64,000 nt of DNA from Escherichia coli (GTDB lineage: Bacteria; Pseudomonadota; Gammaproteobacteria; Enterobacterales; Enterobacteriaceae): assembly GCF_044647545.1 (NCBI RefSeq), contig NZ_CP172818.1; one strand, 5' to 3'. Of this stretch, positions 20,520 through 45,395 are shown in pieces (the first letter of the stretch is position 1; each line of letters starts with the position of its first letter). The position numbers were made by a program, and so were the translations under genes. The notes beneath the pieces are model-generated. The model had not been told where the DNA came from. It made no database searches and saw only the letters and a program-made list of their open reading frames with translations.

Positions 20520-21356
20520 TTATTCCGCTTTGCCATCAGAACCGAACAGTTTAATTTTTTCCAATGCCCGTTCTTTTACAGCTTTACGTACTTCACGTTC
20601 TAAATGCAGGAAAGGCTGATCCTGGTTTTCTTTCACTGCTACCATTGCGGCCTGACAGAGCTCCGTATGAATGTTGATTTTCGCAATACCCAACGAAATT
20701 GCAGTTTTAATGTCGGCATCACTGATCCCCGATGCGCCGTGCAAAACCAGCGGAACAGAAACAGCATCGCGTACGCGTTTGACGACCTCAAAGTTCAATT
20801 GTGGCTCTGACGTATAAACCCCATGCTGGTTGCCGATGGCGACAGCCAATGAGTCACAGCCCGTACGTTCAACAAATTCAGCCGCCTGGTCAGGATCGGT
20901 ATAGTGATAGCCCGCCAGCGCTTCCTCATAAACGGTTTCATTACCGACATGCCCTAATTCCGCCTCTACCGGAATACCCAGCGGATGGAAGAAATCAACA
21001 GCCTCTTTGGTTAAACGAATATTTTCTTCGAAATCAAATGCGGAAGCATCACGCATTAATGAATTCATACCATGAGTCCAGGCGTTATGAATAATTTCCA
21101 TACTCCGACCATGATCCCAATGAGTTATTACCGGCACCGTTGCTTTTTTTGCCATTGATACCATCATGTGAGAGAAATCTTCAAATGAGGTGTTCCCGAC
21201 AAAACCTGTACCAAAAGAAATAATAACCGGTGATTTCGCTTCTTCGGCTGCGTCGATAACGCCCATCAACATTTCTGCATTCCATACGTTAAAATGGGCA
21301 ATTGCATAATGTTTATTTGTGGCATCGTTTTCCCAATATCTGATATCTGCGAGCAT
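20520..21356 (-). CDS. ydjI: class II (zinc) ketose-phosphate aldolase
   Basis: 278 aa; FbaA/GatY-like class II aldolase. Confidence 0.9.
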   Translation of the reverse strand: MLADIRYWENDATNKHYAIAHFNVWNAEMLMGVIDAAEEAKSPVIISFGTGFVGNTSFEDFSHMMVSMAKKATVPVITHWDHGRSMEIIHNAWTHGMNSLMRDASAFDFEENIRLTKEAVDFFHPLGIPVEAELGHVGNETVYEEALAGYHYTDPDQAAEFVERTGCDSLAVAIGNQHGVYTSEPQLNFEVVKRVRDAVSVPLVLHGASGISDADIKTAISLGIAKINIHTELCQAAMVAVKENQDQPFLHLEREVRKAVKERALEKIKLFGSDGKAE

Positions 21357-21376: not shown

Positions 21377-22420
21377 TTAATCGCTAATTTTAATAACGCC
21401 TTTAATAATGTCGCGTTTGTTGTTAACTGACTCTTCAAATGCCTGTTGTACATCCCGATAATCGTAAATATGCGTCACCATCGATTTCACATCGAATCGC
21501 CCTGAAGAAATAGCTTCAATCGTGACCGGATAACGATTGGCATAGCGGAATACCGTCTGGATAGTGACTTCGCGATTGATTTTGAGGAAATTGATTGCCG
21601 AATCGCCCGGTACAGTACCAACAATCATAATTTTACCGCCGCGCATTACCAGATAAGGTGCCTGTTTAACGGTGACCGCAGAACCTGCTGTTTCGAAAAC
21701 AATATCTGCGCCCATTTCTTCGGTAAATTGCTGACAGCGTGCAATAGTGTCTTCTTTTGCGCCGTTAATAACCACTGTCGCGCCGAGCTGTTCCGCCATT
21801 GTCAGACGTTTTTCCAGCACATCAACGACGGCAATATCCGTAGCTCCCAGGCATTTGCACGCTTGCAACGTCATCAAACCAATACAACCTGCTCCCAGAA
21901 TAATTATCTTCTTACCCGGTTTAACATCTGCCAGCATCGCGGCATGCATCCCGACTGCGGCAGGCTCCACCAGCGCCCCTTCCATCGTGTCCATATTGTC
22001 GGGCAGTTTGTAAGTAAAGCTCTCCGGATGACACAGATAGTGCGTTAATGCGCCGCGGTAGTTGGGTTGTGTCGCCATAAAATCAACGTCCGGGCAGATG
22101 TTATATTTGCCTTCCAGACAGTAACGACAGTGACCGCAAGGAACGCCAGGTTCGATATTTACCCGATCCCCCGCTTTAAATTTGCGCACACGGCTTCCCA
22201 CAGCCACAACCGTCCCGGCGCATTCATGACCCAGGCCAATTTCTTGATTTGGGTCTTTAGGCGGAATAAACGGGCCTGATTCGAAACCATGTACATCTGA
22301 ACCACAAATACCGACATATTCCACTTTAATCAAAACTTCATCTTCTTTAGGCACAGGTATTTCTGCTGAAATAATTTTCATTGTGCCCGGCACCTGCAAT
22401 ATTGCTTTTGAATTTTTCAT
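21377..22420 (-). CDS. ydjJ: zinc-dependent medium-chain alcohol/polyol dehydrogenase
   Basis: 347 aa; GHECAG zinc-binding motif and CGHCRYC structural zinc motif. Confidence 0.9.
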   Translation of the reverse strand: MKNSKAILQVPGTMKIISAEIPVPKEDEVLIKVEYVGICGSDVHGFESGPFIPPKDPNQEIGLGHECAGTVVAVGSRVRKFKAGDRVNIEPGVPCGHCRYCLEGKYNICPDVDFMATQPNYRGALTHYLCHPESFTYKLPDNMDTMEGALVEPAAVGMHAAMLADVKPGKKIIILGAGCIGLMTLQACKCLGATDIAVVDVLEKRLTMAEQLGATVVINGAKEDTIARCQQFTEEMGADIVFETAGSAVTVKQAPYLVMRGGKIMIVGTVPGDSAINFLKINREVTIQTVFRYANRYPVTIEAISSGRFDVKSMVTHIYDYRDVQQAFEESVNNKRDIIKGVIKISD

Positions 22421-42459: not shown

Positions 42460-42534
42460 ATGAAAAAAACAACGATTATTATGATGGGTGTGGCGATTAT
42501 TGTCGTACTCGGCACTGAGCTGGGATGGTGGTAA
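42460..42534 (+). CDS. yoaJ: 24-aa small membrane protein
   Basis: Read by hand: MKKTTIIMMGVAIIVVLGTELGWW; starts 2 nt after yoaK stop. Confidence 0.7.
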   Translation: MKKTTIIMMGVAIIVVLGTELGWW

Positions 42535-42592
42535 CGTCACATCTAGAAAATAGCAAAGGCTGCCTGTGTGCAGCCTTTGTGCAATTTACGCG

Positions 42593-42841
42593 TTAACTTT
42601 TAATCTTTCTGTAGATAAACAGCACGACAATCGCGCCAATAACGGCAACCACGAAGCTGCCAAAATTGAAGCCATCGACTTTACCAAAGCCAAACAGCGT
42701 GCTGATCCATCCGCCGACTACGGCACCGACTATCCCCAGCAGGATAGTCATAAAGAATCCACCACCATCTTTACCTGGCATGATCCACTTCGCCAGAATA
42801 CCGGCAATAAGCCCAAAAATAATCCATGACAGAATGCCCAT
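42593..42841 (-). CDS. yeaQ: GlsB/YeaQ/YmgE-family small membrane protein
   Basis: 82 aa; Gly-rich transmembrane segments. Confidence 0.85.
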   Translation of the reverse strand: MGILSWIIFGLIAGILAKWIMPGKDGGGFFMTILLGIVGAVVGGWISTLFGFGKVDGFNFGSFVVAVIGAIVVLFIYRKIKS

Positions 42842-42988
42842 TGTTTCCTCACTTATCTGTTTTGCATTAGCGGGTTAGTCGCTGATAAAAAGCATAGCAC
42901 AACATCGGGAGGGCAAGATTTGTGACGAGCATCACGGAGGAATTTTTTGCGATGGCGCAGAAATTGCGCCATCAACGATCAGTGATAA

Positions 42989-43171
42989 TTACCAACCACA
43001 AACATCATGTTCGTTTTCCGTGTCATAAGAACGCACGGTATTCACCAGATCTTTTATCACTTCAGCCGCCACTTCTGGTACCAGCAAAGTCATCGGCGTC
43101 TCTGTTTCATAATCGACAGAAACGCCATTGCTGTTATTGGTGACGGTCACGGTATACGTTGCTTTGCCCAT
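42989..43171 (-). CDS. yoaG: DUF1869 small protein
   Basis: 60 aa; immediately downstream of yeaR (4 nt gap). Confidence 0.8.
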   Translation of the reverse strand: MGKATYTVTVTNNSNGVSVDYETETPMTLLVPEVAAEVIKDLVNTVRSYDTENEHDVCGW

Positions 43172-43174
43172 GAT

Positions 43175-43534
43175 TCATTTCCCGTTATGAATGACTTTCC
43201 GTTGTTGCGCGCCTTCCATCAGGACTTCAGGAGCAACGAAGAAGTCAATGTTGAAATAAGTGTCGTCAGTCATGGCTTCAATGTTGTGCCACTTTTCTGG
43301 AGGGAACACCGCAAACTGCCCCGCTTCGATAAGGATCACTTGATCAGGCTCTGCACTGTGTTCATCAGCGTAGCCGAGATATTTGACCGCCCCATGCATA
43401 ACGGAAAGGCGTGGGTAAACCCCCGGGCGCGTTCCTTTATCAAGATGACGTTCGAATATTCCGGCAGGCGCAGTTTGTTTATTCCAGAAAGGCGTTGAGC
43501 GCGTATGAATATAATTCTGTGGGATTTGCAGCAT
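43175..43534 (-). CDS. yeaR: DUF1971 (tellurite-resistance-related) protein
   Basis: 119 aa; synteny. Confidence 0.85.
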   Translation of the reverse strand: MLQIPQNYIHTRSTPFWNKQTAPAGIFERHLDKGTRPGVYPRLSVMHGAVKYLGYADEHSAEPDQVILIEAGQFAVFPPEKWHNIEAMTDDTYFNIDFFVAPEVLMEGAQQRKVIHNGK

Positions 43535-43600
43535 CCTTTTCCCTCCTTCGGTGAATGCGCTGAAAACGGTTTATTCCAGCCGTTTCAGGGTACGCCTGAT

Positions 43601-43623
43601 AATTTGCATTTTAAATACCATTT
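43601..43623 (-). promoter_or_regulatory. candidate NsrR-type operator upstream of yeaR-yoaG
   Basis: aatttgcattttaaataccattt, an AT-rich imperfect palindrome resembling the NsrR consensus (recalled). Confidence 0.35.
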
Positions 43624-43706
43624 ATTGGTTACTTTTTAGCACCGTATCAGAGAAGAATCAGGGAGGATTACAGATGGGAAGCCCGCGACAACGCGGGCTG
43701 AAAGCA

Positions 43707-44414
<708 letters not shown>

Positions 44415-44471
44415 TTAGAAAGGAGAAAATCAGGTTTTAACCCGATATCAACGCGATAATTGAATCATTAA

Positions 44472-45395
44472 TCAGGCATGCTCCAGTGAAAAATTCGGGT
44501 AGTGCTCGGCAAAATACTGGCGTAAAAATTCTACCGTTATCCGCACTTTCGCTGACGTCGCCAGCCTTGAAACATAAACGGCCCAGACGTTCGCTGGCTG
44601 GTAATATTCCGGTAGCACTTGCACTAAATGACCACTGGCAATGTTTTCGCTAACATCCCACCAGGAGCGCAGAGCAATCCCCTGCCCATCGAGACACCAC
44701 TGATGGACAATTTCTCCATGATTAGACGACAGTGGGCCGGTAACTTTAATCGCATGGTGGCCTTCTTTATTGCGTAATTGCCAGACACCAAAAGGATGAT
44801 CGCGCTCTTTAATGACCAGGCACGGCAATGCAGAAAGATCGGTTAAATGTTTCGGCGCGCCATGTTGCGCAATAAATTCCGGTGACGCGCAGAGAATGCG
44901 ATAATTGGTCGCCAGTTTGCGGGCGATTAAATTAGGGGCGATATCATCGCCAATGCGAATATCGAGATCGACACCTTCATTGACCAAATCGACCAACCGG
45001 TCTTCCACATCAAAACGTAATTCCAGTTGCGGATACGCCTTCGCCAGCGCTGATAACGCCGGAGCCACCACCTGTCGTCCAAAACCAAAGCTGCTGATAA
45101 TACGCAGCATCCCCTGTGGCACCTGACGCACGTCAGAAAGTTCGTCCATCATCTGACCGACATCCTGCAAAATCCGCTGCGCCCATTCATAAATCCGCTC
45201 TCCTTCTTCGGTAATGGTGACGCGGCGGGTGGTGCGGTGTAACAACACCACGTTTAGCGTTTGCTCCAGCAAGGCGATGCGCTTGCTGACGAACGCCGGA
45301 GAAACGCCCAATTCTTCTGCCACGGCGGCAAAACCAGCCCGGCGAGCCACCAGCATAAAGACGCGCAAATCGTTCAGCAGCGGTAAATTATTCAT
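44472..45395 (-). CDS. dmlR: LysR-family transcriptional regulator of D-malate degradation
   Basis: 307 aa; N-terminal LysR HTH; divergent from dmlA. Confidence 0.9.
   Translation of the reverse strand: MNNLPLLNDLRVFMLVARRAGFAAVAEELGVSPAFVSKRIALLEQTLNVVLLHRTTRRVTITEEGERIYEWAQRILQDVGQMMDELSDVRQVPQGMLRIISSFGFGRQVVAPALSALAKAYPQLELRFDVEDRLVDLVNEGVDLDIRIGDDIAPNLIARKLATNYRILCASPEFIAQHGAPKHLTDLSALPCLVIKERDHPFGVWQLRNKEGHHAIKVTGPLSSNHGEIVHQWCLDGQGIALRSWWDVSENIASGHLVQVLPEYYQPANVWAVYVSRLATSAKVRITVEFLRQYFAEHYPNFSLEHA

What the first reader, a model, noticed from the sequence alone, without database searches (positions are those of the whole stretch)
43535..43706. Candidate NsrR-type operator in the yeaR-yoaG upstream region
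The site aatttgcattttaaataccattt (43601-43623) is an AT-rich imperfect palindrome about 70 nt upstream of the yeaR start, consistent with the nitrosative-stress regulation I recall for this operon.
Basis: partly seen in the sequence, partly recalled or inferred. Interest (0 to 1): 0.15.

Follow-up and report, generated by a model that had tools for sequence, protein, structure and literature searches.

The report
Known NsrR operator at yeaR promoter

Summary
The window is E. coli chromosome. The region 43535-43706 is exactly the leuE-yeaR intergenic region, and yeaR-yoaG lies on the minus strand. The quoted 23-mer is at 43601-43623. Read on the yeaR strand it is AAATGGTATTTAAAATGCAAATT, the same sequence published as the yeaR NsrR 11-1-11 site (Mehta et al. 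2015, PMC5320621, Table 4: ln P -17.05, cut-off -14.28).

I built a position-weight matrix from 16 ChIP-positive NsrR sites, leaving yeaR out. It ranks this site first of 63,978 window positions at 21.0 bits (P = 3.9e-8 per position). None of 200 simulated windows reached that score.

The published NarL 7-2-7 site (TAACCAATAAATGGTA, centre -43.5) maps to 43616-43631. That places +1 at 43580 and the NsrR site at -43 to -21, centre -32. The site therefore overlaps the proximal NarL heptamer and the -35 element.

In 25 of 26 orthologous loci (Escherichia, Citrobacter, Salmonella, Silvania) the best matrix hit in about 5.3 kb is at the homologous position. It sits inside a conserved island from -51 to -7.

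Verdict: observation confirmed, interpretation supported, already known. Caveat: the CFT073 ChIP-seq saw no NsrR peak here, which its authors call a probable false negative.

The parts
43601..43623 (-). NsrR operator, an 11-1-11 inverted repeat AAATGGTATTT-A-AAATGCAAATT. It spans -43 to -21 (centre -32) relative to the inferred yeaR transcription start.
   Evidence: Matrix score 21.0 bits, rank 1 in the window, P 3.9e-8. Identical to the published yeaR site. The homologous site is the best hit in 25 of 26 orthologous loci.
43616..43631 (-). NarL 7-2-7 activator site TAACCAA-TA-AATGGTA, centred at -43.5. Its promoter-proximal heptamer lies inside the left arm of the NsrR site.
   Evidence: Sequence and position quoted in PMC10853779. 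Located in the window. Heptamers match TACYYMT at 5/7 and 5/7, and the 16-mer is unchanged in most Citrobacter and Salmonella orthologues.
43610..43615 (-). Inferred weak -35 hexamer TTTAAA (-35 to -30), inside the NsrR site.
   Evidence: Inferred from the -43.5 anchor and a 17-bp spacer to the -10 element. PMC10853779 says the NarL site is 'just upstream of the -35 element' and calls the -35 'intrinsically weak'. The consensus promoter scan finds nothing here, as expected for an activator-dependent promoter.
43587..43592 (-). Inferred -10 hexamer TACCCT (-12 to -7).
   Evidence: Position follows from the -43.5 anchor. GCGTA(A/C)CCT is conserved across genera, with 0.85 mean identity.
43580..43580 (-). 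Inferred transcription start (+1, G), giving a 46-nt leader.
   Evidence: Arithmetic from the published NarL centre at -43.5 and the window coordinates. Not measured here.
43542..43548 (-). Shine-Dalgarno sequence AAGGAGG of yeaR.
   Evidence: Read directly from the sequence. Conserved as AGAGGGAAG in the orthologues.
43175..43534 (-). yeaR (119 aa, DUF1971), first gene of the regulated operon.
   Evidence: ORF list. RefSeq annotation of an identical E. coli locus.
42989..43171 (-). yoaG (60 aa, DUF1869), second gene of the operon.

Best explanation
The 23-bp element at 43601-43623 is the operator of the nitric-oxide-sensitive Rrf2-family repressor NsrR in the sigma-70 promoter of the E. coli yeaR-yoaG operon. 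An NsrR dimer carrying its iron-sulfur cluster binds the 11-1-11 inverted repeat at -43 to -21. That span covers the weak -35 hexamer and the promoter-proximal heptamer of the NarL 7-2-7 activator site (-51 to -36). Bound NsrR should therefore exclude RNA polymerase sigma region 4 and phospho-NarL. Nitric oxide nitrosylates the cluster, NsrR leaves the DNA, and phospho-NarL (nitrate/nitrite signal through NarX/NarQ) can then recruit polymerase through the alpha C-terminal domain. The promoter integrates nitrate/nitrite and NO. Shown here: motif match, position, overlap geometry and cross-genus conservation. Taken from the literature: NsrR-dependent repression, and NarL binding and activation. 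Inferred: steric competition as the mode of repression.
For: The exact 23-mer is published as the yeaR NsrR site, and yeaR is stated to be NsrR-regulated (PMC5320621). The leave-yeaR-out matrix scores it 21.0 bits, rank 1 of 63,978, P 3.9e-8, with 0 of 200 simulated windows reaching it. The NarL site at -43.5 (PMC10853779) maps to 43616-43631, which puts the NsrR centre at -32. The homologous site is the best hit in the whole ~5.3-kb locus in 25 of 26 orthologous loci, at 73-84 nt from the ATG, with scores of 15.9-24.2. There is a conserved island from -51 to -7 (identity 0.83-0.85) against flanks of 0.43-0.49. In the C. sedlakii clade 5 of 11 left-arm bases differ, yet the score holds at 21.1-21.6. 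In Silvania the NarL site is not recognisable (3/7 and 4/7) and a TTGACA follows the site, yet the palindrome is closer to consensus at 23.2 bits. That argues for selection on the NsrR motif itself. The 71-bp core is present at 95% identity or more in 5,416 of 5,426 complete E. coli genomes. yeaR and yoaG were induced about 160-fold by nitrate in CFT073 alongside other NsrR targets.
Against: NsrR ChIP-seq in CFT073 found no peak at yeaR, although the site there is identical. The authors call this a probable false negative. The site overlaps the NarL site and the -35 element, so much of the conservation could come from those elements. The right arm is weak in Salmonella arizonae and diarizonae (4.2 and 0.1 bits; totals 15.9 and 11.4). 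The primary papers with operator mutations (Lin et al. 2007; Filenko et al. 2007) could not be read here. The '-32' statement therefore rests on my memory plus my own coordinate arithmetic.
Confidence: 0.92

Rival explanations
1. The resemblance to the NsrR motif is a by-product of the NarL site and the AT-rich -35 region. On this view NsrR affects yeaR only indirectly, and the conserved block reflects promoter and NarL constraints alone.
For: No NsrR ChIP-seq peak at yeaR in CFT073. The left arm coincides with the NarL proximal heptamer and the centre with the -35 element. Palindromy of 8/11 is common, with 105 such positions in the window.
Against: A matrix trained without yeaR gives P 3.9e-8 and rank 1. 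Silvania keeps a better NsrR palindrome although the NarL site is unrecognisable and the -35 lies elsewhere. The C. sedlakii clade rewrites the overlap yet keeps the score. The literature states that yeaR is NsrR-regulated.
Confidence: 0.04
2. Only one 11-bp half-site is the functional NsrR target (the single-motif mode proposed by Partridge et al. 2009, cited in PMC5320621), and the other arm matters only as part of the NarL site.
For: The left arm (AAATGGTATTT) is invariant wherever the NarL site is kept, so its conservation is confounded. In Salmonella arizonae and diarizonae one arm is near zero (0.1-4.2 bits). Single-motif binding is discussed.
Against: In E. coli both arms score well (11.5 and 9.8 bits). 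Both arms stay positive in all Escherichia and Citrobacter loci and in Silvania. The fixed 11-1-11 spacing is kept in every locus.
Confidence: 0.04

Closest known systems
NsrR operators of E. coli ytfE, hcp, hmp and ygbA (11-1-11 inverted repeat, consensus AAGATGCATTT-N-AAATGCATCTT)
   Same: Same 23-bp architecture and spacing. The matrix score (21.0 bits) falls within and above the middle of the range for ChIP-validated sites (13.0-31.1, median 17.9). It overlaps core promoter elements, as a repressor site would.
   Different: It is more degenerate than ytfE, which is a perfect consensus. It is fused to an activator site, so the left arm doubles as the proximal NarL heptamer. No ChIP-seq peak was seen in CFT073.
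yeaR-yoaG promoter as described by Lin, Bledsoe & Stewart 2007, Squire et al. 2009 and the NarL cryo-EM study (PMC10853779)
   Same: It is the same locus. The NarL 7-2-7 sequence TAACCAATAAATGGTA quoted in the cryo-EM paper is present unchanged at 43616-43631. The derived operator centre of -32 agrees with what I recall from the Lin et al. abstract.
   Different: No difference was detected. The window carries the same promoter sequence as the published one over the stretches that could be compared.
E. coli ogt promoter (NarL-dependent, Fnr-independent)
   Same: NarL alone activates it from a 7-2-7 site abutting the -35 element (PMC7419079).
   Different: ogt needs two tandem NarL sites. The papers read here describe no NsrR operator for it. 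yeaR has one NarL site plus the overlapping NsrR operator.

Membership tests
NsrR (Rrf2-family) operator, E. coli type | 23-bp 11-1-11 inverted repeat matching the NsrR position-weight matrix above the accepted threshold | tested here: met
   21.0 bits with a matrix built from 16 ChIP-positive sites excluding yeaR; ln P -17.05; rank 1 of 63,978. The published PatSer ln P is -17.05 against a cut-off of -14.28.
NsrR (Rrf2-family) operator, E. coli type | Placed where a repressor can block initiation, overlapping the core promoter or an activator site | tested here: met
   It spans -43 to -21 when anchored on the published NarL centre at -43.5, overlapping the -35 hexamer and the proximal NarL heptamer. 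The transcription start itself is inferred, not measured.
NsrR (Rrf2-family) operator, E. coli type | Motif retained at the orthologous promoter in related species | tested here: met
   Best hit of the locus at the homologous position in 25 of 26 loci from four genera. Retained where the NarL overlap is rewritten or lost.
NsrR (Rrf2-family) operator, E. coli type | NsrR occupancy in vivo or binding in vitro | not testable with these tools
   In the literature, the CFT073 ChIP-seq found no peak at yeaR, judged a probable false negative by its authors. No binding assay could be read here.
NsrR (Rrf2-family) operator, E. coli type | Downstream operon derepressed in an nsrR mutant or by NO, and by operator mutations | not testable with these tools
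   PMC5320621 and PMC4959519 state this, citing Filenko 2007 and Lin 2007. The primary papers are not held.
NarL 7-2-7 activator site | Two inverted TACYYMT heptamers separated by 2 bp, near -43.5, with NarL bound | tested here: met
   TAACCAA-TA-AATGGTA at 43616-43631, heptamers 5/7 and 5/7. The identical sequence is reported as the NarL site in the 3.2 A cryo-EM complex.

The most novel reading that the evidence does not exclude
The overlapping NarL/NsrR operator may be a lineage-specific overlay on an older, stand-alone NsrR-controlled yeaR promoter. Silvania has a near-consensus NsrR palindrome followed directly by TTGACA and no recognisable NarL 7-2-7 site. The Citrobacter sedlakii clade has rewritten the shared 8 bp (TGCCCCTTTTGGTGTA) while keeping both motifs. 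If this reading holds, the locus would be a small natural example of co-evolution of two regulators reading the same bases.
Probability: 0.3. Interest if true: 0.2.

Novelty: already known. Interest (0 to 1): 0.05.

Why it matters
It matters little beyond correct annotation. The site is a textbook-level, published cis-element. It explains why yeaR-yoaG responds to both nitrate/nitrite (NarL) and nitric oxide (NsrR). The same promoter is used as a nitrate/inflammation biosensor part (PMC11611042, PMC6561318). The check shows that the first-stage reader can locate a real operator from sequence and memory alone, but it adds no new biology.

Tried and rejected
- **Primary papers not held.** I tried Lin et al. 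2007 (PMC2168752), Filenko et al. 2007 (PMC1913375), Bodenmiller & Spiro 2006 (PMC1347358) and Karlinsey et al. 2012 (PMC3438343); none is held. The experimental operator mapping is therefore cited second-hand and from memory.
- **Scaffold sequence unavailable.** The supplement of the NarL cryo-EM paper, which gives the scaffold sequence, is not held.
- **Consensus promoter scan.** It finds no sigma-70 promoter in 43450-43800. That is expected for a weak, activator-dependent promoter and is not evidence against one.
- **RNA element rejected.** Rfam with permissive thresholds finds nothing in 42500-44500, so a structured RNA in the intergenic region is rejected.
- **Palindromy alone rejected as evidence.** 105 positions in the window are at least as palindromic.
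- **Literature searches for the operator centre.** Searches for a held paper quoting the operator centre returned only secondary mentions.

Full report
**Identity of the locus.** A 1.5-kb stretch around the finding is 100% identical to many complete E. coli chromosomes. The RefSeq annotation of one of them gives the gene order dgcP, yoaK, yoaJ, yeaQ, yoaG, yeaR, leuE, dmlR, dmlA. In the window, yeaR is 43534..43175, yoaG is 43171..42989 and leuE is 44345..43707, all on the minus strand. The finding's interval 43535-43706 is therefore exactly the 172-bp leuE-yeaR intergenic region. The operon is read from right to left.

**The observation.** The quoted 23-mer is present at 43601-43623. On the yeaR strand it reads AAATGGTATTT-A-AAATGCAAATT. 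It is 83% A+T, and 8 of 11 arm positions are self-complementary. It lies 67-89 nt upstream of the ATG. Palindromy alone is unremarkable, because 105 window positions do as well.

**Matrix test.**
- I built a symmetrised position-weight matrix from the 16 distinct 11-1-11 sites that carry an NsrR ChIP-seq peak in Table 4 of Mehta et al. 2015 (PMC5320621). yeaR was left out.
- The site scores 21.0 bits, against a training range of 13.0-31.1 and a median of 17.9.
- It is the best of 63,978 positions in the window. P is 3.9e-8 per position, which is 0.0025 expected in the window and about 0.2 in a whole genome.
- With a 75% A+T background P is still 1.3e-6.
- None of 200 second-order-Markov simulated windows reached the score; their mean maximum was 13.3 and their highest 19.6.

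**Documented site.**
- Table 4 of PMC5320621 lists the yeaR NsrR site as AAATGGTATTTAAAATGCAAATT, ln P -17.05, above the authors' precision-recall cut-off of -14.28.
- The paper states that yeaR is known to be NsrR-regulated, citing Lin et al. 2007 and Filenko et al. 2007.
- The NarL cryo-EM paper (PMC10853779) gives the NarL 7-2-7 site of the yeaR promoter as TAACCAATAAATGGTA, centred at -43.5 and just upstream of a weak -35 element.
- That 16-mer is at 43631..43616 on the minus strand. Position +1 is therefore 43580, the inferred -10 is TACCCT (43592..43587) and the inferred -35 is TTTAAA (43615..43610).
- The NsrR 23-mer then spans -43 to -21 with its centre at -32.
- From memory, the abstract of Lin et al. 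2007 says the NsrR operator is centred at -32. I could not open that paper. The agreement is with my recollection, not with a text I read here.

**Conservation.**
- A scan of one genome per species with YeaR returned 26 usable loci: Escherichia (5), Citrobacter (18, counting one MAG labelled Raoultella), Salmonella enterica subsp. arizonae and diarizonae, and Silvania.
- In 25 of 26 loci the best matrix hit in the whole ~5.3-kb locus is at the homologous position, 73-84 nt from the ATG, with scores of 15.9-24.2. The exception is S. diarizonae at 11.4.
- An alignment of 14 non-redundant upstream regions shows a sharp conserved island from -51 to -7. Mean identity to the E. coli base is 0.83 for the NarL site, 0.84 for the NsrR site, 0.83 for the NsrR part outside the NarL site and 0.85 for the -10 element.
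- The flanks are much less conserved: 0.43 further upstream and 0.49 in the leader.

**Separating NsrR from NarL and the -35 element.** The operator overlaps both, so conservation alone cannot tell them apart. Two lineages help.
- In the C. sedlakii group the shared segment is rewritten as TGCCCCTTTTGGTGTA. The left arm becomes TTGGTGTATTT, 5 of 11 bases changed. Both a NarL-like 7-2-7 site (6/7 and 5/7) and the NsrR score (21.1-21.6) persist.
- In Silvania, where YeaR is 72% identical, no NarL 7-2-7 site is recognisable at the homologous offset (3/7 and 4/7). A consensus TTGACA follows the site, yet the palindrome is closer to the NsrR consensus: AAGTCGCATTTTAAATGCATTTT, 23.2 bits.
- Together these argue that the NsrR motif itself is under selection.
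- Within E. coli, the 71-bp core is present at 95% identity or more in 5,416 of 5,426 complete genomes.

**Mechanism.**
- Shown here: sequence match, geometry and conservation.
- From the literature: NsrR is an NO-sensitive iron-sulfur repressor that recognises the 11-1-11 repeat. NarL bound at -43.5 activates the promoter through the alpha C-terminal domain without Fnr. yeaR and yoaG are among the genes most strongly induced by nitrate in CFT073, about 160-fold, together with ytfE and hcp.
- Inferred: NsrR covers the -35 hexamer and the proximal NarL heptamer, so it should repress by excluding both polymerase and NarL. NO releases NsrR, making the promoter an AND-like integrator of nitrate/nitrite and NO.
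- From memory only: Squire et al. 2009 add a Fis site overlapping the NarL site that lowers expression in rich medium.

**Caveats.**
- The CFT073 ChIP-seq did not detect NsrR at yeaR although the site is identical. The authors regard this as a false negative.
- The right arm is weak in the two non-enterica Salmonella subspecies.
- The transcription start and the hexamers are derived, not measured.

**Alternatives rejected.** No Rfam family matches the region. The consensus promoter scan is silent, as expected for a weak, activator-dependent promoter.

**Verdict.** The element is already known and published at these bases. Interest is low.

Noticed in passing
window 21425-21447: This is the second-best NsrR-matrix hit in the window: AACTGACTCTTCAAATGCCTGTT, 17.1 bits. 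It lies inside the 3' end of the ydjJ-like dehydrogenase ORF (21377..22420, minus strand), about 70-90 nt upstream of the next ORF start at 21356. 9 of 200 simulated windows reach this score, so it may be chance.
   Followed up: partly
window 43680-43699 (minus strand): A GC-rich hairpin, AGCCCGCG-TTGT-CGCGGGCT, sits just after the leuE stop codon. RNA free energy is -18.9 kcal/mol with z -5.1. It has no T-run, so the terminator scan did not call it. Citrobacter and Salmonella have a hairpin with a different stem sequence at the same place. It is probably the leuE terminator or a 3'-end stabiliser that insulates the yeaR promoter.
   Followed up: partly
window 43560-43588 (minus strand): The inverted repeat CTGAAACGG / CCGTTTTCAG spans -8 to +21 of the inferred yeaR promoter. 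It is present in Escherichia but not conserved in Citrobacter or Salmonella. Most of the 5' arm lies upstream of +1, so it is unlikely to form an RNA hairpin. Its significance is unknown.
   Followed up: no
L027:2395-2460 (Silvania hatchlandensis); L007, L015, L024 (Citrobacter sedlakii group): The promoter architecture differs between lineages. Silvania has a near-consensus NsrR palindrome abutting TTGACA and no recognisable NarL 7-2-7 site. The C. sedlakii group rewrote the NarL/NsrR overlap (TGCCCCTTTTGGTGTA) while keeping both motifs.
   Followed up: partly
L018:66-88 (Salmonella enterica subsp. diarizonae): In this locus the best NsrR-matrix hit (17.3 bits) is about 2.4 kb upstream of yeaR rather than at the yeaR promoter, where the site scores only 11.4. 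I did not identify the gene next to it.
   Followed up: no
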